Virus record (IMG/VR): IMGVR_UViG_3300003320_000766
Direction: 5' to 3' (one strand)
DNA from: a virus
Length of the DNA stretch: 64,000 nt
In this document: positions 22,625 to 64,000 of the stretch, one piece after another
How positions within the stretch are numbered: position 1 is the stretch's first letter
Layout of the letters: each line of letters begins with the position of its first letter
Translations under genes and position numbers: made by a program
Notes under the pieces: generated by a model
What the model saw: the letters and a program-made list of their open reading frames with translations, nothing else
Databases searched by the model: none
What the model was told of the DNA's origin: nothing

Positions 22625-22915
22625 TTACACGCTAAAATCATATCCCTCATTGAGCGAATTTGAAATTAATTTCAACACCTCCTCTTTCTGATTATTAAAA
22701 TGGGGACGAATTCCATAGACAACATTTTCACTATTTAACTGCACGTAATACCCCATTAACGTACCGTCAGTTGCCTCTATCCTAAAAAACCTCGCATCTC
22801 CATTCTTCATATAGTCACTCACACGCTTGGTGTACTCATCACGCTCCTGCTGACTCTTCTCAGCATAACAAGCCATTACTATTCGTCGATAATTAGATTC
22901 CCATATCTGTCTCAT
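22625..22915 (-). CDS. Small protein, possibly degenerate GNAT-like
   Basis: FRIEATDGTLMGYY..YGIRPHF; located between nozzle and cargo genes. Confidence 0.4.
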   Translation of the reverse strand: MRQIWESNYRRIVMACYAEKSQQERDEYTKRVSDYMKNGDARFFRIEATDGTLMGYYVQLNSENVVYGIRPHFNNQKEEVLKLISNSLNEGYDFSV

Positions 22916-51998: not shown

Positions 51999-54488
51999 TT
52001 ATATTAAAGGAGCTTGTTGTTCCGCATTAGTTTTTATCTGATTAACGGCCACCTCTTGCTCTATTCGATTATCCTTTATTTTATCTTTTTGTTCTAACTG
52101 ACTCATTGTTTTCAATCTTGTCTCAAATTCCAATAATTTAGCATCAAGCCTATTCTCTACCTCCATCACTTTTAATTGATTTTGGAATGTTGTTTGAAGC
52201 TTATTTTGTTCAATTTGATTTTGAGCATTGAGTAATTGCATCTGATAATTTCTTTCATTTTCACGCTCTTCCATCATTTGCTTTCTTCTTTGCTTAGCTT
52301 TCAATCTCAAGATAGCATACTTATATTTCACATTATTTATAAATGTTAATTCGAGGGCATCAACGGGGTCCATCAAGCCATTTGGCGCTGTTGATGCTTC
52401 CAAAGCAAACTGATTAAGAAACGCATTAGCTTCCTGGGTATTGGCCATATCTACAGTTAATCCAAGGTTTCTAAGGGGTATTCCATCAATAGCTTCGAGA
52501 GCATAACTCTGTGCCATTCCCACTATATCCCTAAATTCTTGAAGACGCCTGCTATTTTTTTCAGCAACGATTTCTTTAAAATAATATAGCATTCGCTTGC
52601 CCAATTCGGTATATCCATCTATGAAGGCTTTTTGTATATAATAAGTAGAATCGTCCGATGCTTCTAATGCTTTTTCTATTCCTCCTAATGCCTGACGTGG
52701 CTTCGGGGCCTGACCACTACTAATATCATTCTTACCAAGGCACTGCATCAATAATTGGTATATTTGAAAGATCATTGTTAATCTCTCCATTGCAGACGCT
52801 AAATGACCAGTTTTAATTTCAGTAAAAGGAGGTATAGGTTTCCCATCCTTTGTAAACATTTTACCCCATCCATAACCCGTTTGTTTTAACTTTCGTATTA
52901 CCTCCGTTATATTATCCTTTCCTTCGCGCTGACCTTCATCAAGAAGTTGGAGAGATTCAGTTATAATCTCTTCATTAAACCACTGACCATGCGGCATTGC
53001 ATTTGCTAGATCATTTTGAAATTGTTGCCAAAGAAGGTCAATCTTTCCCATAAATCGATCTTCAATTTCTGCCCAAGAAGGCTCCTCTGACTTCCATAAA
53101 ATCAATGATGATTTAGAGTATTGTTTATCTTCACCATCCCTTACCTGATCCTGAAGCGGACCAAAATCATAAATGTATTTTGCCTGATCTTCGAATGAAG
53201 TAGACGCAACATCAGAACTTCCCATGCCATGAATTGGGATGTAATACATTTTATACCAACAATTGTAATGTCGCTCTTCACGCTTACTATCAGTATAAGG
53301 AGATTCTTTTGGTGGAATCCATTTAGAATCCATTTTGTTATATCGAAAATTACCCCTAAAATATCCTTCTCCGTATACTTCCATGTTTTGCGTTTCCCAT
53401 TCAGTATATCCTATCCTAATTAGAGCACCGTCACGTTGAAGACTTGAGCATCGATCCCACTGGAGTCCATGTCCCGTAGAGCCATATCCATTATGGCGAT
53501 TTAACTCGAAAATATCTCGCAATTCTTGCTCCGATCTGTTAGCACCAAACATCCTTACAAAGTCGCCGAAAGTAATATTATATTCAATATACCAATGCGT
53601 GTGGTCACTTCCATCTAGTTTTTTGAATTTACTTACTTTAACATCATTTAAATCCAACACTTCAATGACTGGCTCTCCGGTAGTTTTACTTGTATACCAC
53701 CTAAAGGCATATCGATTAAAATTTATAAGATCACTGAGAATTTGTTCGCGTAGTATTTGAAATTTATTAGTCGTAAGATAATATTCAATTCCCAGCTCTA
53801 TAGCTATTTCCGCTCCATCTTTATGGATATAAGTGTTATATAAACTAATCCCCTCATTATCATCAATACTTGCTTTTATACTATCTATAATACTCGTTGT
53901 TCTATCAGCATTTTGAACCATTCCTTTCTTTGATCCAGTTTGCGACGCAGCCCCCTGGCCAGCTGCAAGTTTTTCGGCATATTTAAATGGATCTTCGTCA
54001 GGTCGCAGCTGGGGAATTCCTAATTCTTTATTTATTGAATTGACAAATTCAATAAACATCTTTCTTCCCAACATTTTAGAGTTTTCTTTTTGTCTCGTTG
54101 TTTGTGCATATTCATCAGCTGCACGGACTTGATGTGATATGGGAAGCTGATCTAATTTTGCTTTTTGAATTCTTCTCAAATGCAGGTAAATAGGATTCCC
54201 TTTCCAATCCGCAGAAAAATAATCCGCTGTACCACCTGTTCCATCAGGCATTTTGGGGTCAATAATATCTATGAGGGCCTGTTTATCTATTTTGCCTTTG
54301 TCTTTATCCCTAAACTTAGCAATTGTTTCAGAATCAACAAGTTTATAAGAAACCGTTTTATTAAAATAAAGCACCTGCGCTGCCCATAGCTTGTCCTTTT
54401 GTTCAATAGGTATATAGTGAAGGTAATCATAATAGGTATACCGATTAGAAGCAGATGGCTCTATAGTAGATGTGATTACTCCTGACAT
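51999..54488 (-). CDS. Portal protein (crAss-like)
   Basis: 829 aa between the terminase block and scaffold; Gln-rich C-terminal coiled coil. Confidence 0.82.
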   Translation of the reverse strand: MSGVITSTIEPSASNRYTYYDYLHYIPIEQKDKLWAAQVLYFNKTVSYKLVDSETIAKFRDKDKGKIDKQALIDIIDPKMPDGTGGTADYFSADWKGNPIYLHLRRIQKAKLDQLPISHQVRAADEYAQTTRQKENSKMLGRKMFIEFVNSINKELGIPQLRPDEDPFKYAEKLAAGQGAASQTGSKKGMVQNADRTTSIIDSIKASIDDNEGISLYNTYIHKDGAEIAIELGIEYYLTTNKFQILREQILSDLINFNRYAFRWYTSKTTGEPVIEVLDLNDVKVSKFKKLDGSDHTHWYIEYNITFGDFVRMFGANRSEQELRDIFELNRHNGYGSTGHGLQWDRCSSLQRDGALIRIGYTEWETQNMEVYGEGYFRGNFRYNKMDSKWIPPKESPYTDSKREERHYNCWYKMYYIPIHGMGSSDVASTSFEDQAKYIYDFGPLQDQVRDGEDKQYSKSSLILWKSEEPSWAEIEDRFMGKIDLLWQQFQNDLANAMPHGQWFNEEIITESLQLLDEGQREGKDNITEVIRKLKQTGYGWGKMFTKDGKPIPPFTEIKTGHLASAMERLTMIFQIYQLLMQCLGKNDISSGQAPKPRQALGGIEKALEASDDSTYYIQKAFIDGYTELGKRMLYYFKEIVAEKNSRRLQEFRDIVGMAQSYALEAIDGIPLRNLGLTVDMANTQEANAFLNQFALEASTAPNGLMDPVDALELTFINNVKYKYAILRLKAKQRRKQMMEERENERNYQMQLLNAQNQIEQNKLQTTFQNQLKVMEVENRLDAKLLEFETRLKTMSQLEQKDKIKDNRIEQEVAVNQIKTNAEQQAPLI

Positions 54489-54607: not shown

Positions 54608-54943
54608 TTACAAAAATACTTTTTTTTCCTGAGGGCCACCAAATTGATCAATCAAAACATTACACCCGGCGGCATTATATGAATAATATTCATCTATTGA
54701 CATGCCAATAGACTGATAATATTTCTCGTACATTTTATCTATATTACATATATCTGGCCTATCGTCGTATACAGTACAGCCAACCCCTTCTTCATATTTG
54801 GAACAAACAATGCCATTAATCTGAAAGGGGAAGGCCCTAACTTCTTGCAGCAACGCATTGCCCTTAGACATATCGTTTCGCGCTTCAGTTATGAGCCTTC
54901 CTATGGATTTACAGCATATCCCACATTTAGTGCAAGGAAACAT
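54608..54943 (-). CDS. YkgJ/FliB-like CxxCxxCC cysteine-cluster protein
   Basis: FPCTKCGICC...C......GCTVYDDRPDIC. Confidence 0.85.
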   Translation of the reverse strand: MFPCTKCGICCKSIGRLITEARNDMSKGNALLQEVRAFPFQINGIVCSKYEEGVGCTVYDDRPDICNIDKMYEKYYQSIGMSIDEYYSYNAAGCNVLIDQFGGPQEKKVFL

Positions 54944-55810
54944 TTATTCTTTAGGATTACCAAGTGAAATTAATTCCGCTTCCTCAACCTCTCCACGAAA
55001 ATACCCAAACAACACTCTAAACTCAGCTTGTTTCCAATCTGGATAGAATCCCATCAAATGAGACTCAAATCGGGACATTTGACTAAGCATATAAGCCTGG
55101 GACCCCTTTTCCAGAACGCCAACGTCCTTAACTTTCACTTTTTTACCCGTACTGGCTGCTTCCTTAATTATTTCTTTTCTTTTATTTTCGTTTTTCACCT
55201 TTTTACTAAGAACTATCGCAGCTGATGGACTCAACACACCGGTTTTTACCGCCATCTTGATGTCTTCCGGCCCCTTTGCCAACTTAAGGTAATCCTTCAC
55301 ATATGTCAAAGATTTACCTATCCGTTTGGCCACACTTTCTGGCGTATGCCCCAGATGAACTAATCTCATAAAAACATCAGCTGCCTCTATCGGCTCTAAA
55401 GCCTTATTATCCTGGGTGATGAACATTTTAAATAAACGCTCTTCCTCAGTAATTGATTTTGGATTGACAAAACACTCTACTGTCTTCACATCATGCCCAT
55501 TATCAATCAGCCATTGGTAAGCCCTATGCCTTCTATAACCATCATTAAGATATGCTACGATTTCCCCATCCACCTCAGCCACATCCACAATCAATGGGCT
55601 TTCTAATCCATTACTGAGAATAGATTTGGCTAATGCTTCAATATCGCCATATTCAATTCTGGCGTTGAATCCTGGACGTGGTCGAATCCTTTCAAAATCA
55701 AAGAAGAGGGTTTCTCTCCCTCTTCTTGTAGCCACCTCACGGGCTTTTCTTCCACTTAATACATTTTCTGCTGTAAGCTCGACGTGTTGATTAACTATTT
55801 TGTTCTCCAT
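54944..55810 (-). CDS. parB: ParB/Spo0J-like protein with CTPase motif and HTH
   Basis: ATG 55810; FNAR..DIEALAKSILSNGLESPL..DGYRRHRA; HTH TPESVAKRIGKSLTYVKDYLKL. Confidence 0.8.
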   Translation of the reverse strand: MENKIVNQHVELTAENVLSGRKAREVATRRGRETLFFDFERIRPRPGFNARIEYGDIEALAKSILSNGLESPLIVDVAEVDGEIVAYLNDGYRRHRAYQWLIDNGHDVKTVECFVNPKSITEEERLFKMFITQDNKALEPIEAADVFMRLVHLGHTPESVAKRIGKSLTYVKDYLKLAKGPEDIKMAVKTGVLSPSAAIVLSKKVKNENKRKEIIKEAASTGKKVKVKDVGVLEKGSQAYMLSQMSRFESHLMGFYPDWKQAEFRVLFGYFRGEVEEAELISLGNPKE

Positions 55811-55850
55811 TATTTCAAAGTGTTTTGACAAAAATAAAAATATTTTTTTA

Positions 55851-56606
55851 TTAATCAATGGCCAAAACATCAACAACGGCTATAACATCGAATTTTTTTT
55901 CAAAAACGGTCAATTCAAAATTACTTTCTTTTTCTGCTAAAACATAATCGCCTGATTTTAAACCTGTTTCAGGAGAAGAGAATAATACCCTTCTTTTAAT
56001 ATGAGTCGTTTCTTTGGCATTAAATCCGAATAACCCATTTGCTTGCACTGTTAGGTTACTGTTTTCCTGTTTGGGCTCACAAAAAATGAAATAATCATTT
56101 GGTATCAATTGACCATCGCGTATTACCCCTAATAACAATGAAATTTCATCTACATCTCCCTTTCTGGCGACAAATACATTTTTCTCTCCAGTATATTCCA
56201 TTTTAATTTTCTTCTCCCCTTGCGTCCCACCAATCTTTTTTTGTTGATAGTATGAAGTAACGACAATGTCTTTATCGTGTATACGAGACTGGCAAGGTAC
56301 ACTCACCACTTTATCATTTCCTTCCATGTACGCAACATATTCCGCGTCAGCATCCACTATATAATCTATTAAAGCGATATCGCCTATTTGAACATTTTTC
56401 ACTCCAGGAGACAATGCAATCACCTCTCCTACCTTTACACTGAGTTCGTATTTATCTACTTCTTCATATGAAGGAGCCTTTAAACACAATTTTATTTTTT
56501 CTCCAGTAGTAGTAATGATTTCTTTTTCCAGCAAATCAAGCTTGCTTTTTGCAGATAACTTTACAAGAATTCGAGGTATGCCTACTCCGTTTTTTGTTGT
56601 TTGCAT
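55851..56606 (-). CDS. Tandem double GroES-like protein
   Basis: Domain 1 GEVIALSP..VQIGDIALIDY; domain 2 IPNDYFIFCEP..LKSGDYVL..DVLAI. Confidence 0.65.
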   Translation of the reverse strand: MQTTKNGVGIPRILVKLSAKSKLDLLEKEIITTTGEKIKLCLKAPSYEEVDKYELSVKVGEVIALSPGVKNVQIGDIALIDYIVDADAEYVAYMEGNDKVVSVPCQSRIHDKDIVVTSYYQQKKIGGTQGEKKIKMEYTGEKNVFVARKGDVDEISLLLGVIRDGQLIPNDYFIFCEPKQENSNLTVQANGLFGFNAKETTHIKRRVLFSSPETGLKSGDYVLAEKESNFELTVFEKKFDVIAVVDVLAID

Positions 56607-56616
56607 ATGTTTATTT

Positions 56617-58602
56617 TTAGGTTCTTTTTGGTATCATAGCGCTCATCGCACTTTTTATGGCTTGATTTACTTGCGGAGTTACTAAAACATATTTTAATTT
56701 TGCAGCTCCTATAAAGGTCATTATCAATCCCATAACACAGTCAAATTTGGAACTTTTAGCCTTTTCAAAATCCTTCAATTGTTCAATCAATTCTTCAAAG
56801 ACAATTAGCTCCAACCAATCAATTCCTTCTTTAGGCTTTTTAATATATGCTTGAATAAGTTCTATTCCGTCTTTTATCACAGCCTGTGTTGTAAATGTAC
56901 CGTGAGCTCCTTGATCATCTGTCATTACAAAATCTGCCATTCCTCTTCCCCTAAACCAATCCCAGGTACTGGTTATCTGTCTCTCAGTATTTATTGGCCA
57001 TCCTAAAAAAAGACATAATAATCTTAATTGCTCATTAAAAAAATCTACGTCTTCGTCTCTCCCATACAACTGAAACATTAATTCATTTGCTCTTCCATTG
57101 TTCCAGTAGTCGAACTTCTGAAACCCATAAGCCGCATTCATACTTAAATGGTCTGACGTATTATCAGCTGTTCTTATAGGGTCATTTCCTATAACACCTT
57201 CAGGATTTAACGGCAACATCCATTTTTCAAGTCTTTTATTATACGTACAGCGATTAATTGTCTCTTTACTGGGCAGGTATTTAAATTTTATTATCCCTTT
57301 TTTATCGGGAATAAACTTAGCTCCTTCAGACGTAGGCTTCATAAAGCCTGGAGTATATAATTCTTTTGTTGCAGATAAAACAGTTATTTTTTTTGATTGG
57401 GCATCTAAGCGCATTCGTGAGAATGTACCGGATTCGCCAGCCGATGCCATAGCTTCTTCAGCAGTAAATGGATATTTTCTTACATGATAAAGATATTCCT
57501 TAGAAGATTCGCCATGTTCTGAAATAATGGAATTTCTTTTTGCCTGCAAGTATTCTTTAGCTGCATCCTGATCACATATACCGAATTTATCAATGAATTT
57601 TGCATATGCTACATATGCTGGTATAAAATATCTAAACAATCCACTTTTTGTTTCTCCGTATATATCTCTATCATTATAGTCGCTTTCCCCCCACAATTTA
57701 ATACCATCCTTTACCGCTTTATCATATGATTCATCATCCCCCATAGTAGCAAAAAGCGCGGCCTTTCCGACAATCTCGCCGCCAACTTGTAATGCCTCTT
57801 TTGTAATGTTCCAAGTATTATATACACTCGCTTTAGTCCATTTATATATTTCATCTAATATTACCAAATGCCATTTATGACCATCAAATGTTTTCGCTGT
57901 TGTAGATCGCGGACTTATCCATGATTTTAATCCTTCATCATCACTTCCAAAAAAATCTGTATCATCATCATTCTTTTTTACCTTAACCAGATTTTTTATA
58001 AATCTCATCTCTTTCTGAGGGACCTTGCCATTAGGTGTATAGATATCGGCCTTGACATATTTTGGACGAGACATATAGGATTCTGTCAATGGCCTAAACA
58101 TCGTCTCTATTGCTTTATCTTTATCTGTGGAAGCTAATCCTATATGCATACCCTCTTGTGACATAGCCTTTCTAATCGCACGAGATATGGCGATAGCAGT
58201 ATATCCATAACGACGTGGCTTGATAACTATTTCTCCATAACAATGCTCATCCCTGGCAACAATTTCTTGAAAATAAAAATCCAGGCGTTGGGCATCATAG
58301 AACTTGGGAGGGCCAGAGAAGTCGGGATAATTATTATATCTCAAAAAGTCGTAATGACCTCCTGTTAAATACACTGGTTCCCCATTCAAAAACATCCAAA
58401 CTCCTTCTTCTATCCTTCGGCGCTCTTCTTCAATGAAGAGTCCCTTTTCCATTGCAGTAGCATGTTTCATATCAGGCATTTTGGGTCTAACCCAATATTG
58501 CTCTGATTTCTTTTTGTCATAGAACAGGATTTCCTTCTCATTATTTGGCATTTTTGGAAGCTCAAACTTGTAACAATCCTGGATAGTTATTATTTCTCCC
58601 AT
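56617..58602 (-). CDS. terL: Terminase large subunit
   Basis: Walker A VIKPRRYGYT, Walker B LVILDE, nuclease VIGNDP and FDCVMG. Confidence 0.9.
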   Translation of the reverse strand: MGEIITIQDCYKFELPKMPNNEKEILFYDKKKSEQYWVRPKMPDMKHATAMEKGLFIEEERRRIEEGVWMFLNGEPVYLTGGHYDFLRYNNYPDFSGPPKFYDAQRLDFYFQEIVARDEHCYGEIVIKPRRYGYTAIAISRAIRKAMSQEGMHIGLASTDKDKAIETMFRPLTESYMSRPKYVKADIYTPNGKVPQKEMRFIKNLVKVKKNDDDTDFFGSDDEGLKSWISPRSTTAKTFDGHKWHLVILDEIYKWTKASVYNTWNITKEALQVGGEIVGKAALFATMGDDESYDKAVKDGIKLWGESDYNDRDIYGETKSGLFRYFIPAYVAYAKFIDKFGICDQDAAKEYLQAKRNSIISEHGESSKEYLYHVRKYPFTAEEAMASAGESGTFSRMRLDAQSKKITVLSATKELYTPGFMKPTSEGAKFIPDKKGIIKFKYLPSKETINRCTYNKRLEKWMLPLNPEGVIGNDPIRTADNTSDHLSMNAAYGFQKFDYWNNGRANELMFQLYGRDEDVDFFNEQLRLLCLFLGWPINTERQITSTWDWFRGRGMADFVMTDDQGAHGTFTTQAVIKDGIELIQAYIKKPKEGIDWLELIVFEELIEQLKDFEKAKSSKFDCVMGLIMTFIGAAKLKYVLVTPQVNQAIKSAMSAMIPKRT

Positions 58603-58653
58603 AAAAAAAGGATAAGCATATACAAGTTACAAAATAAACTTGCATATGCTTAT
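58603..58653 (-). terminator. 17-bp hairpin plus U7 abutting the terL start
   Basis: ATAAGCATATGCAAGTT-loop-AACTTGTATATGCTTAT-CC-TTTTTTT-ATG. Confidence 0.6.
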
Positions 58654-58679
58654 TAATCTACTCGGTTGGCTGAACTCTA

Positions 58680-58907
58680 TTATTTCCAGGTGGCTGCTTT
58701 AACGCCATTCATTTGAGCATCTACTACGAGCTCTATAGCGTGTTTGAAAAACCCTTTGGCATCTACATCGATGGTAAGCTGAGATTCTTCGTGTAAAGCG
58801 TCAATTAATGCTGCCGCTTTTTCTTTAATAGAATTAACGCTCTGTATTCCACTTGGATTAAATGAAAGACCAACGCGCTTCTGACCATAAGATAATGTTC
58901 CTTCCAT
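58680..58907 (-). CDS. Acb2/Tad1-like helical-hairpin protein (nucleotide-sponge candidate)
   Basis: GQKRVGLSFNPSG..VNSIKEKAAALID...AQMNGVKAATWK pattern recalled for this family. Confidence 0.55.
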   Translation of the reverse strand: MEGTLSYGQKRVGLSFNPSGIQSVNSIKEKAAALIDALHEESQLTIDVDAKGFFKHAIELVVDAQMNGVKAATWK

Positions 58908-58960
58908 GTTTTAATATTATTTTGAAATAAAATGCTAAAATAGCAAATATTTCAAATTAA

Positions 58961-59212
58961 TTACCGTGGAAGTTTATCCTCTATATAATTAACTATATCT
59001 TCAACTTTTTCGAAGTCCTCCATTACCTCATCCGGTATACTCATAGAAAAATCCACCTCTATTGCCATGATGATTTCTATTTGATCTAAAGAATCTGCAC
59101 CGAGATCATTTACAATATGAGACTCATATTTCACTTCTGACTCTTCGATGATCAATTTTTCCACAATTACTCGTCTTACTCGTTTAAAAATTTCATTTTT
59201 CTTAATGGGCAT
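58961..59212 (-). CDS. acpP: Acyl carrier protein
   Basis: DLGADSLD phosphopantetheine site; acidic 83 aa; SIPDE..VEDIVNYI. Confidence 0.92.
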   Translation of the reverse strand: MPIKKNEIFKRVRRVIVEKLIIEESEVKYESHIVNDLGADSLDQIEIIMAIEVDFSMSIPDEVMEDFEKVEDIVNYIEDKLPR

Positions 59213-59213
59213 A

Positions 59214-59588
59214 TTATATGAATTTTTTATGGTTTTCTTTATTGAATGAGAAGGATAACATCCAATTTTTAATATCCATAAATTCGCTTTTTATCGGTAA
59301 AACGCTAAAGTATGGATGTATTGTTTTTTGTTCACGGTAATAAAAAAGAAGGCTTTTCCATTCCTGTGGTTTAGTGTCCTTAATGACATCTTTTATTAAA
59401 ACGTCTGGATGTTGTTGATAATATATCCATATATCTGATTCTGCTTTTTCTTCTTCCACTTCAATTATCCCTTTGTTTCTGATAACATACATAGTTGCCA
59501 TGTAAGAAGCAGCATCATTAAATGGAATGGCATATTCATTAAATGAATCTCTGAATATTAAAGCTCTTTCTTCCATGTCAATTTTCAA
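59214..59588 (-). CDS. Hypothetical protein
   Basis: ORF track; start may be 59576. Confidence 0.6.
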   Translation of the reverse strand: MKIDMEERALIFRDSFNEYAIPFNDAASYMATMYVIRNKGIIEVEEEKAESDIWIYYQQHPDVLIKDVIKDTKPQEWKSLLFYYREQKTIHPYFSVLPIKSEFMDIKNWMLSFSFNKENHKKFI

Positions 59589-60456
59589 AGTTTACCAAGT
59601 AATTAACATCCATATCTACAGGATTACGGACCATTTTATTCCTATACAAGATATAAGAAAGATTGTCATTATACTGAGGGATTTCATGATATGAATTACC
59701 AATGGACAGATGGCATAGTGTATTGATAAATACACTATCCTGTTGATGAATAAAAGTGAGGAATTCTTGATGATCTGCATTCAAAATAAATTTCACCACA
59801 CGTGTATTAAAAAGAAAATTCCCCTGATGGATGATTTTATTTATATCCTGTAAGGAGTGAATACTATGATGATTCAGATCATTTTCTATCTGAGGAGCGA
59901 CCGATTTATTCATTAATATAGCATAATAAATGAAATATATGCTGGATGCTTGCACATTTTGTGCTTCCAACATTTTCTTAATCATTCTTTCATGGCTACC
60001 AGTAATATAAACATCATCCATCATAATTACCGTTTTCCCCTTTAGGAATACTGCATCCACATAAAAAGAATCATTTCCTATCAAATTCATTCTTTCTTCA
60101 GCAGACATTCCACCATAATCTTCCCGATAAGTAACCTTACGGTATATCCTGGCCTCTTCAACTACTGGCAGCTTTTTAAGCATCAAAGCATAATTCAATT
60201 TCTGAACGAAATAATCTTTCATTGCAAAAGTTGCCGTTGGAATAAATTGATAAGGACTACTGACAACTACTATTTGTCCCAAAGACTCCAGTTTATGTTC
60301 AATTCCTTCTAAAAATCCTTTTGCAAGATCAAATCCAAATTCTCTTGCTATATTTTTACATCCAAACTTAAATTTACTATAGTCAGATGCACTGAAAGAT
60401 AGTTTTGAGGTATCTGCACTAGTGATGTGATGTAGCCCATATCTGGTAGTGATCAT
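59578..60456 (-). CDS. Phosphoribosyltransferase-like protein (Ter-associated PRTase type)
   Basis: YSKFKFG; SSPYQFIPTA; PRPP-binding IMMDDVYITGSHE. Confidence 0.8.
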   Translation of the reverse strand: MITTRYGLHHITSADTSKLSFSASDYSKFKFGCKNIAREFGFDLAKGFLEGIEHKLESLGQIVVVSSPYQFIPTATFAMKDYFVQKLNYALMLKKLPVVEEARIYRKVTYREDYGGMSAEERMNLIGNDSFYVDAVFLKGKTVIMMDDVYITGSHERMIKKMLEAQNVQASSIYFIYYAILMNKSVAPQIENDLNHHSIHSLQDINKIIHQGNFLFNTRVVKFILNADHQEFLTFIHQQDSVFINTLCHLSIGNSYHEIPQYNDNLSYILYRNKMVRNPVDMDVNYLVNFEN

Positions 60457-61037
60457 AATTTTGTAATTATAGCGTTATACAAATTTTTATTCCATTTCGC
60501 ATCTTCCAAGGCATGATGTTCATTCTCTGGATCGGGACAACAAGTTTCTTTCCATTCTTTCGTTAAACCGCGCTCCCACATCATTTGTTTCAAATCAATA
60601 CAAAACATAGGAAATCCTATCGGTAGGTCCATCATAGTTCCAAATAAAGAACAAAATAATACCCAATCGTAGTCTGAGTAATATCCATATACTTCAATAC
60701 CATCAGGAGCTTTCCAATTTTTACCATCAGACACACAGCCAAAAAAGTTTAATATTTCTTTGCGGATAACAGTATTCGATTTCCAATAAGCTGCTTCTTT
60801 ATGCATCCTTGGAGAGTCGTCTGGCCAAGAAGCATATTTAGACGGCAGTTGTGATAGCACATTTTTATTGACCCACGCATTTGCATCCTTTATGTCAAAA
60901 TCCATACTAATTCCATAATATTCTCTCCCACTTTCATCAACCAAGCCAATACTAATAAGGTCTATAAAATGTCTTTTTTTGCCCAAAAAAGGCTTATGGA
61001 ATCCTTCTATAAATTCAGTATCGATAAAATACTTCAT
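60453..61037 (-). CDS. DEDDh 3'-5' exoribonuclease, Rv2179c-like
   Basis: FIDTEF; LISIGLV; YDWVLF; HHALEDAKWN. Confidence 0.85.
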   Translation of the reverse strand: MKYFIDTEFIEGFHKPFLGKKRHFIDLISIGLVDESGREYYGISMDFDIKDANAWVNKNVLSQLPSKYASWPDDSPRMHKEAAYWKSNTVIRKEILNFFGCVSDGKNWKAPDGIEVYGYYSDYDWVLFCSLFGTMMDLPIGFPMFCIDLKQMMWERGLTKEWKETCCPDPENEHHALEDAKWNKNLYNAIITKL

Positions 61038-61753
61038 GATGATATTTTTAGCATGTTATGAATGAATGAGAAATTTACCCCGTCTGATTTATCTCCAACC
61101 AATTGGCATGTCATACCATATATTGCAGCAGCTCCATCACACACTACAGAATCTCCTATATGGCATATTTCATTACGTGAAACGCCTTCTGATGTTTTTA
61201 TATACTGTACGTTGGTATACAGCATATCGTATATTTTTTTATTTGGTTTACTAATCCCCACCTCATCACTAAAGATTTCAAATGAAAAATACTTTTTCAT
61301 CCCTAACATGTCCAATGCTTTTCTTATAACATCTCCACTTATAAATCCAGTATTGGATAATATACTAATTGAGATATTATTCTCTTTGAGGAATTCCATC
61401 AACTCCCATATGCCTTTATCTGCTATTAATGGGAGGTCATTCAAGAAAATATTCGTTATCATATCTTGAATAAATCTTAAATCTAAATGCGCTGCATTCA
61501 TTTCATGTAAAGCAAATGCTAACATAAAATCAGATGATACTGCCTGTCCATCTATTTCAGCAATTGCGTCAAACCGTTTTGATACTTTACTCATAATATA
61601 TTCGATATCAGATACCGTCAATATTTTCCGATTAAACCCTGATTCTGAACTGGATCGAATAGCATGATGTAGATAATTGGCTCGATATTTTTTGAATTTA
61701 GGATTTGACTTAAATATGGTATTCCATATATCAAACGAAACATGTTTTATCAT
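61034..61753 (-). CDS. HAD-superfamily hydrolase
   Basis: SFDIWNT; LSNTG; SKPNKKIY; HIGDS..DG. Confidence 0.88.
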   Translation of the reverse strand: MIKHVSFDIWNTIFKSNPKFKKYRANYLHHAIRSSSESGFNRKILTVSDIEYIMSKVSKRFDAIAEIDGQAVSSDFMLAFALHEMNAAHLDLRFIQDMITNIFLNDLPLIADKGIWELMEFLKENNISISILSNTGFISGDVIRKALDMLGMKKYFSFEIFSDEVGISKPNKKIYDMLYTNVQYIKTSEGVSRNEICHIGDSVVCDGAAAIYGMTCQLVGDKSDGVNFSFIHNMLKISS

Positions 61754-61835
61754 ACTATAAATTTAGACGTGTGAAATATTTTAATAACTCATTCCGTGAA
61801 GACAGAATAAGATTTCATTATCTCAACAAAACCCG

Positions 61836-61877
61836 GTGAAAAGCAAGGAATCGAACCTTGATCAACCATTCTTTTCA
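61836..61877 (-). ncRNA. tRNA-like minihelix (acceptor stem + T-arm, no anticodon arm)
   Basis: UGAAAAG / AAUGGUUGAU / CAAGG-UUCGAUU-CCUUG / CUUUUCA-C. Confidence 0.5.
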
Positions 61878-61878
61878 A

Positions 61879-61906
61879 AAATAGGGCAGGAATTCCTGCC
61901 CTATTT
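61879..61906 (-). terminator. Perfect 28-bp palindrome, likely terminator
   Basis: AAATAGGGCAGGAATTCCTGCCCTATTT followed by TT on the - strand. Confidence 0.75.
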
Positions 61907-61932
61907 GCATTCTCAATTACAGTCACAAAATA

Positions 61933-62385
61933 TTATTTGATCTCAGGCCAGTCCCAGGAAAATTGTTCCGGGTCACTGTCTAAAGGCAGCGCTTGTCTGT
62001 TTGGTACATTTTTATAAACTTTCGGGGTTTCGTCACTTACATTGAACACACGCAGATTTAGCTCATTGTTTGGTAACACCTGCACAACCACTGCTGCATT
62101 CGTTTCAGCTCCTTCAGTACGTGCATATGTATCCGATACTCCAGGAAAGAATGTTACGATACGACCGACTGAAGCAGGCTTAATTGGAGCAGGAGCAGGA
62201 GTAGGAGCAGAAACGACATCTGGTGAATTTACCGGGCCAGTGGCGTTTGTGTCAGGTGGTATTGCGCCTTCAGATACTCCCTGATTTACATTTTGTTCGC
62301 TTGTTGTCCCAACGACGTTAGAAGGAGCATTTTGTTGATCAGTAGTTTGTGGTACTTGTTCCACACTTTGATTTTGTGTTTCCAT
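61933..62385 (-). CDS. Hypothetical phage protein with low-complexity N-terminus
   Basis: C-terminal PASVGRIVTF..AAVVVQV..LNLRVF..SWDWPE domain common in phages. Confidence 0.7.
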   Translation of the reverse strand: METQNQSVEQVPQTTDQQNAPSNVVGTTSEQNVNQGVSEGAIPPDTNATGPVNSPDVVSAPTPAPAPIKPASVGRIVTFFPGVSDTYARTEGAETNAAVVVQVLPNNELNLRVFNVSDETPKVYKNVPNRQALPLDSDPEQFSWDWPEIK

Positions 62386-62407
62386 TTTAAATTGTTTTTG
62401 AAATTGT

Positions 62408-62578
62408 TATGAGATAATACTGGGAGGGCCTGTCTGTATTTCCCTCCCAGATAAAGGGTATTCGACTGGGTTCAATCAGTCAATTTGCACGCCAATCATC
62501 TCATACATTAACATTTTGATTAAAAATGCTTCCTTCTACTGAATTCCACATAGACAGGAAGATAATCTATCTGGAATT
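62408..62578 (-). ncRNA. Candidate structured RNA in TerD-downstream intergenic region
   Basis: 11-bp closing stem, two internal hairpins, and an upstream hairpin whose loop is complementary to an internal loop. Confidence 0.4.
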
Positions 62579-62600
62579 ATTACATAGGATATATAATCCG

Positions 62601-63152
62601 TTATTGATATCTGGAAATAAAGCTTTCCATTGAGATACGTTCGCCAACCCCATCTCCTTTGAATTTCCACTCACCGTCTTTTTTATACAGCTCGCCGAAA
62701 ACAACAAGCGTTTCTACAGAATAGTCTTCTGTAAGATCGTATTTTGCAATTTCTTCATTCGTTTGTTGATTATACAAACGAATGAAAGCATTTTTTACTT
62801 GACCGAAATTCTGTCCAGAATAGGAGTTAACCACAAACAGAACCTTAGTAGTTCCTTCTGGAAGTGTGTTGAGATTTACAGATATTGTTTCATCATCACC
62901 ATCACCTTCCCCTGTTAAATTATCTCCGGAATGGACAACTGAACCATCAGGAGACTTAAGGTTCCTGAAATAAACGAAATTCTTTTCCTGCGCCAGCTTA
63001 TCTTGTTCATTCAATATTAATGCGCTTGCATCCAGGTCTATCTTTTTTCCAGATGCGACCGCATCCCATCCCAGTCCTAAAGATGCTATGACTAGCCCAG
63101 CAGCTTCTTTACTCAGGTTGATGTTCTGCCCTTTGATTAAATTGATGCTCAT
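62601..63152 (-). CDS. terD: TerD-family stress protein
   Basis: INLIKGQNINL..LGLGWD..DLDASA..SGDNLTGEGDGDDETI..GEWKF. Confidence 0.9.
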   Translation of the reverse strand: MSINLIKGQNINLSKEAAGLVIASLGLGWDAVASGKKIDLDASALILNEQDKLAQEKNFVYFRNLKSPDGSVVHSGDNLTGEGDGDDETISVNLNTLPEGTTKVLFVVNSYSGQNFGQVKNAFIRLYNQQTNEEIAKYDLTEDYSVETLVVFGELYKKDGEWKFKGDGVGERISMESFISRYQ

Positions 63153-63182
63153 TTTGCTTTTTTGTGTTTTGATTATATAATA

Positions 63183-63198
63183 TGTTCCACATGGAACG
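63183..63198. promoter_or_regulatory. parS-like site TGTTCCACATGGAACG
   Basis: Near-match to the parS consensus, intergenic. Confidence 0.65.
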
Positions 63199-63201
63199 TT
63201 T

Positions 63202-63627
63202 TTACTTTATATCTGAGGAGTCTGAATGATCACGCGAATCTCTTTTTCCAGCCTCAAGAATTGGAAGGTTAGCTTCTGTTGGCACATAAATTACCGCCTG
63301 CGGATTTTTCTCTATATTATCAATCCATAACCAATGCAGATACTCTGGATTTCCTTTCAAGGAAGAACCAATGATTTGATTCGATCTGGCTATTCCATGA
63401 GCCCGTATGGTATCTGCTGCGGCCAACATAGCAGCACTTTCCATTTTCGCCCTTGCTTCAGCTACAGCCACTTCTTTTGATGACTGAGCATGGGCCAGCT
63501 GAGCTTCGCCCTCTTTCCTTGCAGAATAAACACTATATTGTGGACAACCCCACATCATAAGTGAAATAATCAAAAGGATCGCTGACAACACTCTAATTCC
63601 TAAAGAAATAATATGTTTTGTTTCCAT
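63202..63627 (-). CDS. Membrane protein with SPFH/HflC-like coiled coil
   Basis: N-terminal TM; AEARAK..IRAHGIARSNQIIGSSL..EYL.WLWI..IYVPTEANLPILEA. Confidence 0.6.
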   Translation of the reverse strand: METKHIISLGIRVLSAILLIISLMMWGCPQYSVYSARKEGEAQLAHAQSSKEVAVAEARAKMESAAMLAAADTIRAHGIARSNQIIGSSLKGNPEYLHWLWIDNIEKNPQAVIYVPTEANLPILEAGKRDSRDHSDSSDIK

Positions 63628-63642
63628 TTTTGTGTATTAAAA

Positions 63643-63658
63643 TGTTCCACGTGGAACA
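63643..63658. promoter_or_regulatory. parS site TGTTCCACGTGGAACA
   Basis: Perfect palindrome (20 bp with flanks, 63641-63660) matching TGTTNCACGTGNAACA. Confidence 0.8.
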
Positions 63659-64000
63659 TTAGTAGCTGAATATTATTCTTTCCATTATCTTCAACACCAC
63701 CTCCCTTCCTTTAGGAGTAATGTAATACCTTGTACTTCTAACAGCCCCTCTGGTATCTAAATACCCCCGTCTCTTTAAATTAGTCAGGGCTACTCCCAAA
63801 GTGCGTGAGTTAGATGTATATGAATATTTATATTCCTCCAAATAAGCGCTTGGGGCATTTTCTCCTCTATAAAAAAACATGAGGGCATACCATTCTGCGG
63901 GATTAAGATTATAATCTGATGACATTCTTTTCTTATTCCCATCGTAATTAATAAGAAACTGAAGAATCCCATTCACCGATTCTCTAACCCGCTGAGCTCG
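63659..64000 (-). CDS. MarR-like winged-helix protein (5'-truncated by window)
   Basis: LNPAEWYALMFF..LGVALTNLKRRGYL..RYYITPKGREV; frame open to the window edge. Confidence 0.7.
   Translation of the reverse strand, partial: RAQRVRESVNGILQFLINYDGNKKRMSSDYNLNPAEWYALMFFYRGENAPSAYLEEYKYSYTSNSRTLGVALTNLKRRGYLDTRGAVRSTRYYITPKGREVVLKIMERIIFSY

What the first reader, a model, noticed from the sequence alone, without database searches (positions are those of the whole stretch)
54944..63660. ParB plus two chromosome-type parS sites in a crAss-like phage
Seen in the sequence: a perfect TGTTCCACGTGGAACA (63643-63658) and a near-perfect copy (63183-63198), both intergenic and 460 bp apart, plus a ParB gene with G.RR.RA and HTH. 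No ParA is in the window. Established: this palindrome fits the conserved bacterial parS consensus bound by ParB, which can recruit SMC. Inference: the genome is kept or positioned as an episome (carrier state or phage-plasmid) through its own or the host's ParB. Alternatively the sites titrate host ParB or repress the adjacent ter-like operon.
Basis: partly seen in the sequence, partly recalled or inferred. Interest (0 to 1): 0.7.

Follow-up and report, generated by a model that had tools for sequence, protein, structure and literature searches.

The report
Host-type centromere sites in a phage
An uncultured soil/root phage carries two copies of the exact DNA "centromere" site (parS) that bacteria use to segregate their chromosomes, but its own ParB-like protein lacks the residues known to read that site, so the phage most likely borrows the host's ParB, and the same borrowed site turns up in many other phage genomes that have no ParB at all.

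Summary
A perfect TGTTCCACGTGGAACA lies at 63643-63658 and a 2-mismatch copy at 63183-63198. Both are intergenic and flank a lipoprotein gene. A ParB-family gene lies at 54944-55810(-), and no ParA is in the window.

The 16-mer is a common chromosomal parS, including in Bacteroidota. The weaker copy, and an orthologous copy in a related phage, differ only at positions that also vary in bacterial parS clusters.

The phage protein has the ParB fold (NTPase domain plus HTH). It lacks the ParA-binding peptide, R173 (invariable in parS-specific ParB variants), N178 and the GHAR motif. It sits in a clade-specific TerL-p251-ParB-CxxCxxCC-portal block.

The exact parS occurs in at least 120 IMG/VR contigs, against 2 and 3 for matched control palindromes. 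Of 32 long parS-bearing phage records, 31 encode no ParB.

Best reading (about 0.5): these are "stolen" host centromere sites read by host ParB, for positioning or inheritance of phage DNA or for ParB titration. The phage ParB as reader remains possible (about 0.28). An episomal lifestyle and the "crAss-like" label are unproven. Earlier scan reports described orphan phage ParB-like proteins with their own palindromes, not host-type parS.

The parts
63643..63658 (.). parS-1: perfect chromosomal-type parS TGTTCCACGTGGAACA, the core of the 20-bp palindrome at 63641-63660. It lies between the stop of the wHTH gene and the start of the lipoprotein gene.
   Evidence: The exact 16-mer is widespread in bacterial chromosomes.
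63183..63198 (.). parS-2: 2-mismatch copy (minus strand CGTTCCATGTGGAACA), between the lipoprotein stop and the TerD start. Its position is conserved in relative L002 (CGTTCCACGTGGAGCC plus an extra half-site).
   Evidence: The mismatches fall at the outer and central positions, the two positions most often varied in bacterial parS clusters.
54944..55810 (-). Orphan ParB-like gene (288 aa from the ATG at 55810; the ORF runs up to a TTG at 55876). It has a ParB NTPase fold with GYRRHRA and an HTH_ParB domain. It has no LG(R/K)GL ParA-binding peptide, L at the R173 position and SAAI in place of GHAR.
54608..54943 (-). CxxCxxCC (PF03692) zinc/iron-chelating-domain protein, always directly downstream of the ParB-like gene in this clade.
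55851..56606 (-). p251, a conserved protein between TerL and ParB. By language-model features and Atlas structure it resembles viral proteins that partly carry Cpn10/GroES.
56617..58602 (-). Terminase large subunit.
51999..54488 (-). 829-aa protein in the portal position (the Elemovirus layout is TerL-portal). It is conserved at 63% identity in L002.
   Evidence: It has no family hit of its own, so 'portal' is inferred from position.
63202..63627 (-). Lipoprotein gene (a fragment like the SPFH/HflC C-terminal part) flanked by the two parS sites.
62601..63152 (-). TerD-domain gene directly downstream of parS-2.
   Evidence: PF02342, E 1.7e-63.
63659..64000 (-). 3' part of a 266-aa clade-specific protein with a C-terminal winged-helix-like region (full length P0130). 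Its stop codon overlaps the parS-1 palindrome.

Best explanation
The two palindromes are genuine chromosome-type parS sites carried by a phage as 'stolen centromeres'. Their most likely reader is the host's canonical ParB, not the phage's own ParB-like protein.

Proposed mechanism:
- Host ParB-CTP dimers load at the two sites and slide over the neighbouring few kb. This step is established for canonical ParB and inferred here.
- Loading couples phage DNA to the host ParA/SMC machinery, so phage genomes are positioned or inherited in dividing infected cells (a carrier or episomal state).
- Once the phage has replicated to high copy number, the sites also drain ParB away from the host origin.
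- Because each site sits 15-30 nt before a start codon, bound ParB may also damp the lipoprotein and TerD genes.

The phage ParB-like protein is an orphan NTPase-fold plus HTH protein inserted in the TerL-portal block of this phage clade. It has lost the parS-reading residues and the ParA-binding peptide, and probably has another, still unknown DNA target or role.
For: Shown:
1. The exact 16-mer is used in bacterial chromosomes of many phyla, including Bacteroidales, Chitinophaga (5 copies in 8 kb), Flavobacterium and Algibacter. About 20 of those 120 loci encode a ParB within 8 kb.
2. In these bacterial clusters, 57 of 63 one-mismatch variants change the outermost position (46) or the central position (11), against 0.14 variants expected by chance. 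The window's second site differs at exactly those two positions. The relative's site differs at the two outer positions plus position 14, a variant also seen in bacteria.
3. The site after the lipoprotein gene is conserved in L002, where TerL is 77% and ParB 54% identical and the flanking intergenic DNA does not align.
4. Candidate-host-type ParBs (Flavobacterium soli, Chitinophaga solisilvae) are fully canonical: LGRGL/LGKGI, GERRLRA, ENxQR, GKxRS..N, GHxR. The phage protein has none of the parS-reading set. Q162 becomes P, R173 becomes L, N178 becomes D, G201 becomes S, H202 becomes A and R204 becomes I.
5. R173 is invariable among parS-specific ParB variants in a 160,000-variant screen (PMC7383237).
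57 of 123 sites lie outside long ORFs.
7. In 32 long records, 15 of them at least 90% complete, only 1 encodes any ParB_N or HTH_ParB domain. Host-type parS in phages therefore usually works, if it works at all, without a phage ParB.
8. Relatives of the phage ParB have very different recognition helices. One subfamily (L014, L035) is associated with a different palindrome, TGTACACA..TGTGTACA.

Established elsewhere: a mobile element with two copied parS sites uses another replicon's ParAB for its own stability and to displace that replicon (SGI1/IncC, PMC10954446).
Against: - No binding data exist.
- The host is unknown. Bacteroidota is inferred only from TerL relatives and the root/soil samples.
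- KorB shows that ParB-family proteins can read DNA with residues outside the HTH, so loss of R173 and GHAR does not prove that the phage protein cannot bind parS.
- A ParB-like gene co-occurs with canonical parS in this clade and again in L035, a 32% relative with a perfect TGTTTCACGTGAAACA. By a rough estimate that is more than chance would give, which hints at a functional link.
- Nothing in the visible sequence shows an episomal lifestyle.
- The IMG/VR count is a lower bound, and some of those contigs may contain host or plasmid DNA.
Confidence: 0.5

Rival explanations
1. The phage's own ParB-like protein reads the two sites. This would be a ParA-less phage ParB-parS module that condenses, positions or silences phage DNA, or that competes with host ParB for the same sites, using non-canonical contacts.
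For: - The protein has the ParB NTPase fold, an intact GxRRxRA arginine patch and an HTH_ParB domain.
- The gene and a parS-like site are both kept in the relative L002/L397.
- L035 pairs a family member with a perfect canonical parS.
- Earlier scan reports describe orphan phage ParB/KorB-like proteins with their own dispersed palindromes.
Against: - L stands at the position of R173, which is invariable in parS-specific variants. N178, H202 and R204 are also lost.
- Recognition helices in the family are highly diverse, which argues for diverse targets.
- 31 of 32 long parS-bearing phage records have no ParB at all.
- The gene lies 7.3 kb from the sites, inside the TerL-portal block, not beside them.
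Confidence: 0.28
2. The palindromes are local expression signals, and the likeness to parS is coincidental. They could be operators for another regulator, such as the winged-helix protein encoded just upstream, or RNA hairpins acting as weak terminators or processing sites between cistrons.
For: - Each site sits between a stop codon and the next start.
- Site 1 can form an 8-bp RNA hairpin followed by UUUU.
- The terminator scan flags site 2.
- The adjacent gene encodes a protein with a possible winged helix.
Against: - The hairpins are weak (-8.8 and -6.2 kcal/mol) beside this phage's real terminators (-17 to -20). For L002 the predicted fold pairs different bases.
- At most 16 of the 65,536 possible 16-bp palindromes fit the parS consensus.
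- Site variation follows the bacterial parS spectrum.
- An extra direct half-site in L002 fits protein binding, not a hairpin.
Confidence: 0.08
3. The sites are functionless passengers, picked up with host-derived accessory genes (lipoprotein, TerD module) and not yet eroded.
For: The neighbouring genes (TerD, HAD, PRTase, ACP, lipoprotein) are accessory, bacterial-type genes.
Against: - The lipoprotein gene occurs in many other phages without a parS.
- The site is conserved between phages whose surrounding intergenic DNA has diverged beyond alignment.
- One site is still a perfect 20-bp palindrome.
- The site is strongly enriched across phage contigs relative to controls.
Confidence: 0.07

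Closest known systems
Chromosomal ParABS centromere sites (parS, TGTTNCACGTGNAACA; B. subtilis Spo0J, Caulobacter ParB)
   Same: The 16-bp sequence is identical. The sites are clustered within a few hundred bp. The same positions tolerate variation.
   Different: The sites sit on a phage genome, not near a chromosomal origin. No parA or canonical parB is linked, and no DnaA-box cluster lies nearby.
SGI1 genomic island with two copied IncC-plasmid parS sites (PMC10954446)
   Same: A mobile element carries two copies of another replicon's centromere and no cognate ParAB. In SGI1 the sites bind the other replicon's ParB, stabilise the island and disturb the donor replicon.
   Different: Here the copied sites are those of the host chromosome and the carrier is a phage. 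Binding and any effect are untested. The phage also encodes a divergent ParB-like protein.
Prophage-plasmid partition systems (P1 ParAB-parS, N15 SopAB with dispersed centromeres)
   Same: A phage genome carries centromere-like palindromes and a ParB-family gene. In N15 the sites lie among expression signals.
   Different: P1 and N15 encode their own ParA and a ParB matched to element-specific sites. Here no ParA was found, the sites are host-type, and the ParB-like protein lacks the ParA-binding peptide and the parS-reading residues.
KorB-OB of plasmid RK2 and other orphan ParB-CTPase-fold proteins of mobile elements (PMC12704722)
   Same: The protein is an orphan ParB-fold plus HTH protein without ParA on a mobile element. 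The fold match to KorB is as good as to ParB or Noc. The sites lie just upstream of genes.
   Different: KorB reads its own OB operators and works with KorA. Here no cognate site for the phage protein has been identified, and the palindromes present are host parS.

Membership tests
Chromosome-type parS site | 16-bp palindrome fitting TGTTNCACGTGNAACA | tested here: met
   0 and 2 mismatches. Chance expectation is 0.16 even at up to 3 mismatches.
Chromosome-type parS site | The same sequence is used in bacterial chromosomes in clusters and near parB | tested here: met
   at least 120 genome loci, many with 2-5 copies; about 20 of those loci have a ParB within 8 kb.
Chromosome-type parS site | Degenerate copies vary only where natural sites vary | tested here: met
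   the outer and central positions account for 57 of 63 natural one-mismatch variants. The window's site 2 differs at exactly these positions.
Chromosome-type parS site | Specific binding by ParB and CTP-dependent loading | not testable with these tools
   Needs EMSA, BLI or ChIP.
Canonical chromosomal ParB (Spo0J/TIGR00180 type) | ParB N-terminal NTPase fold with a GxRRxRA arginine patch | tested here: met
   GYRRHRA. Fold matches to ParB, Noc and KorB. Pfam ParB_N itself does not reach threshold.
Canonical chromosomal ParB (Spo0J/TIGR00180 type) | N-terminal ParA-activating peptide LG(R/K)GL | tested here: not met
   the alignment shows it present in Bacteroidota, Bacillus-type and Myxococcus-type ParBs and absent from all four phage-clade proteins.
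Canonical chromosomal ParB (Spo0J/TIGR00180 type) | parS-reading residues Q162, R173, N178, G201, H202 and R204 (Caulobacter numbering) | tested here: not met
   the phage protein has P, L, D, S, A and I at these positions; only G170-K171-S172 is kept. The significance rests on PMC7383237.
Canonical chromosomal ParB (Spo0J/TIGR00180 type) | Box III ENLQR (CTP hydrolysis and gating) | tested here: not met
   TQDNK stands in its place. Nucleotide binding and hydrolysis are therefore uncertain.
Canonical chromosomal ParB (Spo0J/TIGR00180 type) | C-terminal dimerisation domain of ParB type | tested here: inconclusive
   The C-terminal 70 aa do not align with canonical ParBs and are modelled as helices. 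No dedicated profile was run.
Phage-plasmid ParABS partition module (P1/N15 type) | Linked ParA ATPase | tested here: not met
   There is no deviant Walker A ORF in the window, and none is visible in 30 kb of relative L397/L002.
Phage-plasmid ParABS partition module (P1/N15 type) | Plasmid replication or lysogeny functions | tested here: inconclusive
   None was seen in the window or in L397. A more distant ParB-like relative, L007, has a Xer-type recombinase next to the gene.
Crassvirales (crAss-like phages) | TerL, portal, MCP and giant RNA polymerase related to crAss-like phages | tested here: inconclusive
   The best TerL matches are Elemovirus and Cellulophaga phages at about 27%. The 2950-aa ORF and the putative capsid genes have no hits.
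Stolen-centromere hijack (SGI1 type) | Sites identical to those of another replicon whose ParB the element does not itself encode | tested here: met
   The sites are identical to chromosomal parS. The element's own ParB-like protein is not of the parS-reading type.
Stolen-centromere hijack (SGI1 type) | Foreign ParB binds the sites, the element is stabilised and the donor disturbed | not testable with these tools
   Needs binding and stability assays.

The most novel reading that the evidence does not exclude
Carrying the host chromosome's own parS is a widespread and so far undescribed phage strategy. Phages with no partition genes would load host ParB-CTP clamps, and through them ParA and SMC, onto viral DNA to position or inherit it, or to strip ParB from the host origin. 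In this phage clade the strategy is combined with an orphan ParB-like protein that has lost the parS-reading residues and may modulate or replace the host clamp.
Probability: 0.35. Interest if true: 0.8.

Novelty: new variant of a known kind. Interest (0 to 1): 0.62.

Why it matters
If host ParB does load on these sites, a phage without any partition genes could be positioned or inherited by the host's own chromosome-segregation machinery. That would give a concrete molecular handle on carrier-state, pseudolysogenic or phage-plasmid persistence, which is debated for crAss-like and other 'virulent' phages.

The survey suggests the phenomenon is general. There are at least 120 phage contigs with the exact site, against 2-3 for control palindromes, and nearly all lack a ParB. 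It is easy to test with existing ParB reagents.

The result also warns against reading every phage 'ParB' next to a parS-like site as a matched pair. Here the residues that define parS recognition are missing.

Tried and rejected
- Megablast of the region against cultured phages found nothing.
- ParB and TerL as single queries against IMG/VR found no relatives. TerL in species genomes found none.
- The window has no held genome, and Logan records cannot be searched whole. The window's own ParB is not indexed for contig look-up, so the remaining 27.8 kb of its 91.8-kb contig could not be read.
- The JGI 40,985-bp relative has no retrievable DNA.
- I looked for a repeated motif that could be the phage ParB's own site, using k-mer and palindrome scans of the window. 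No convincing candidate emerged.
- Terminator reading: rejected as the main explanation because the hairpins are weak and not conserved.
- 'parS travels with the lipoprotein gene as a cassette': rejected, because nine other contexts of that gene have no parS.
- 'ParB between TerL and portal is a general feature of the wider phage group': rejected, because 80 TerL relatives have neither a ParB nor a parS within 10 kb.
- A DnaA-box cluster near the sites (an origin mimic, as in L035) is not present in the window.
- The structure model of the 266-aa winged-helix protein was too poor (pLDDT 55) to search with. The idea that it and the upstream SMC_N-like ATPase form a partition-like or kleisin-like pair stays untested.
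- The literature search (open-access only) found no description of host-type parS in phage genomes.
Full report
THE OBSERVATION

The window holds exactly two matches to TGTTCCACGTGGAACA at up to three mismatches. One is perfect, at 63643-63658. The other is TGTTCCACATGGAACG at 63183-63198. Shuffles gave a mean of 0.16 matches, and none of 100 shuffles gave two. The perfect copy is the core of a 20-bp perfect palindrome at 63641-63660.

Both sites lie in short gaps of a minus-strand gene row. The order is:
- a gene for a 266-aa protein with a possible C-terminal winged helix, whose TAA stop overlaps the palindrome;
- parS-1, ending 15 nt before the next ATG;
- a 141-aa lipoprotein gene (63202-63627);
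- parS-2, which begins 3 nt after the lipoprotein stop and ends 30 nt before the next ATG;
- a TerD gene (62601-63152).

The ParB gene is real. It probably starts at the ATG at 55810, giving 288 aa. It contains GYRRHRA, hits HTH_ParB at E 1.9e-11, and its best solved relative is B. subtilis Spo0J. A model with pLDDT 76 matches Noc, KorB and ParB structures over both the N-terminal domain and the DNA-binding domain. No ParA-type Walker A motif is in the window.

ARE THE SITES parS?

Five lines of evidence say yes.

Hits include Bacteroidales, Chitinophaga (five copies in 8 kb), Flavobacterium, Algibacter and Daejeonella, often as clusters. About 20 of these loci encode a ParB within 8 kb.

2. 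I tabulated the degenerate neighbours of the perfect sites in those bacterial loci. There were 63 one-mismatch sites, against 0.14 expected by chance. Of these, 46 change the outermost base and 11 the central CG. The window's second site differs from the perfect one at exactly these two positions. The site in the related phage differs at the two outer positions and at position 14, a variant that also occurs in bacteria. The phage sites are therefore under the same constraint as host sites.

3. The relative L002/L397 has TerL 77% and ParB 54% identical to the window's. It keeps CGTTCCACGTGGAGCC, plus a third half-site, directly after the orthologous lipoprotein gene. The surrounding intergenic DNA cannot be aligned.

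4. The RNA hairpins these sites could form are weak (-8.8 and -6.2 kcal/mol) next to the phage's real terminators (-17 to -20), and they are not conserved in L002.

5. The lipoprotein gene is a very widespread phage gene, with about 2000 homologues. Nine other contexts of it carry no parS, so the sites are not part of a gene cassette.

WHO READS THE SITES?

Canonical ParB contacts parS through Q162, G170, K171, S172, N178 and R204. Specificity comes from R173, T179, A184 and G201. In a 160,000-variant screen, parS-specific variants had an invariable R173 (PMC7383237).

I aligned the phage protein with two reference sets:
- ParBs encoded beside this very parS in bacteria;
- the chromosomal ParBs of Flavobacterium soli and Chitinophaga solisilvae, whose genomes carry the exact site.

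In these alignments the GKS turn is kept. The other reading positions are changed: P at 162, L at 173, D at 178, Y at 179, K at 184, S at 201, and SAAI where all canonical proteins have GH(A/G)R. The phage protein also lacks the N-terminal LG(R/K)GL peptide that activates ParA, has TQDNK in place of ENLQR, and has an unrelated C-terminus.

Its relatives in metagenomes (56 loci) keep the GHRR patch but have very diverse recognition helices. One subgroup (L014, L035) is accompanied by a different palindrome, TGTACACA..TGTGTACA. These results argue that members of this family read their own varied sites, and that the window's protein is not a canonical parS reader. This is an inference from sequence. 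KorB shows that ParB-family proteins can use contacts outside the HTH, so binding is not excluded.

A WIDER PATTERN IN PHAGE GENOMES

Two palindromes of the same composition served as controls. One keeps the central CACGTG and occurs in 2 contigs. The other is the site read backwards and occurs in 3.

About half of the viral sites (57 of 123) lie outside long ORFs, several directly after terminators or paired with a second parS variant.

Among 32 records of 30 kb or more, 15 were estimated at least 90% complete and many have terminal repeats. Only one of the 32 encodes a ParB_N or HTH_ParB domain anywhere. Most carry one site. A few carry two within 100-500 bp, as here. One carries the same CACATG variant as the window's second site.

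Host-type parS in phage genomes is therefore common, and it normally comes without any phage ParB. A documented precedent for a copied centromere is SGI1. Its two IncC-type parS copies bind the helper plasmid's ParB, stabilise the island and expel the plasmid (PMC10954446). I found no paper describing host-chromosome parS in phage genomes. The crAssphage phage-plasmid study does not mention parS or ParB. The search covered open-access literature only.

THE PHAGE ParB-LIKE GENE IN CONTEXT

The block TerL, p251, ParB, CxxCxxCC, 829-aa protein is conserved in four members of the clade. It is absent from 80 more distant TerL relatives, which have neither a ParB nor a parS within 10 kb. In the nearest cultured phages (Elemovirus) the order is GroES, TerL, portal.

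In more distant relatives the ParB-like gene sits in different company. In L008 it lies beside Dam and N6_N4 methyltransferases. In L007 it lies beside a Xer-type recombinase and a YqaJ exonuclease. The location between the packaging genes is therefore clade-specific and says little about function.

No ParA, replication initiator or integrase is visible in the window or in 30 kb of the relative. The last 27.8 kb of the window's contig could not be reached.

VERDICT

- The best mechanistic reading is that they are borrowed host centromeres read by host ParB, serving positioning or inheritance of phage DNA and/or titration of ParB, possibly with local silencing of the two downstream genes (about 0.5).
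- Local regulatory signals or functionless passengers are unlikely (about 0.15 together).
- The episome inference and the 'crAss-like' label are unproven.
- The case is a new variant of known kinds (ParB-parS partition; stolen centromeres), with a plausible wider phenomenon behind it.

Noticed in passing
window 58961-63152 (minus strand): A Ter-type accessory module lies upstream of TerL: TerD (62601-63152), a HAD hydrolase (61034-61753), an Rv2179c-like 3'-5' exonuclease (60453-61037), a PRTase_3/ComF-like protein (59578-60456) and an acyl carrier protein (58961-59212). HAD, the exonuclease, PRTase and ACP are conserved in L002. PRTase is also in L008.
   Followed up: partly
window 63202-63627: The lipoprotein resembles the C-terminal part of SPFH/HflC proteins. 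It has about 2000 homologues at 65-92% identity on phage-like contigs from many contexts. Against L002 the mature part is 99% identical in protein but only about 85% in DNA, which indicates very strong purifying selection. Its function is unknown.
   Followed up: partly
L397 8564-10804 (the relative; corresponds to DNA just beyond window position 64000): A 475-aa ATPase with weak SMC_N/AAA_23 matches (phrog_1499, 93 representative homologues) is followed by the 267-aa winged-helix protein, the lipoprotein gene and the parS. The order ATPase, DNA-binding protein, palindrome recalls a partition cassette or an SMC-kleisin pair. The structure model of the 266-aa window-contig homologue (P0130) was too poor to test this.
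   Followed up: partly
L035 3480-4260: An 840-bp non-coding region of another phage contig (49 kb, ParB-like relative at 32%) combines a perfect TGTTTCACGTGAAACA, two DnaA boxes (TGTGGATAA) and two copies of a TGTACACAtttGTGTACA palindrome. It looks like an origin built from host-type sites.
   Followed up: partly
IMG/VR loci L263-L382; records G003-G034: The exact host-type parS occurs in at least 120 viral contigs, against 2 and 3 for matched control palindromes. Several loci have two different parS variants side by side (L318, L349, L382). One record, G031 (81 kb, terminal repeats), has two perfect sites 500 bp apart.
   Followed up: partly
window 55851-56606: The 251-aa protein between TerL and ParB groups, by language-model features and Atlas structure, with viral proteins of which a quarter to a half carry a Cpn10/GroES domain. 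Elemovirus phages have a GroES gene directly upstream of TerL.
   Followed up: partly
window 11186, 22660, 37446 (also 22663): A 13-mer, TTGAAATTAATTT, recurs at or near gene junctions of the long minus-strand structural row. The copy at 22660 is a perfect 16-bp palindrome. It is a possible promoter or other expression signal.
   Followed up: no
window 58680-58907: A 75-aa protein gives a weak Pfam match to the Acb2/Tad1 hairpin domain (E 0.003, below threshold). A homologous domain call appears next to the lipoprotein gene in another phage, L385.
   Followed up: no
L007 6033-6860; L008 1478-2299 and 5154-5849: The closest ParB-like relatives outside the clade sit in different contexts. One lies beside a Xer-type tyrosine recombinase and a YqaJ exonuclease (L007). 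The other lies beside Dam and N6_N4 DNA methyltransferases (L008).
   Followed up: partly
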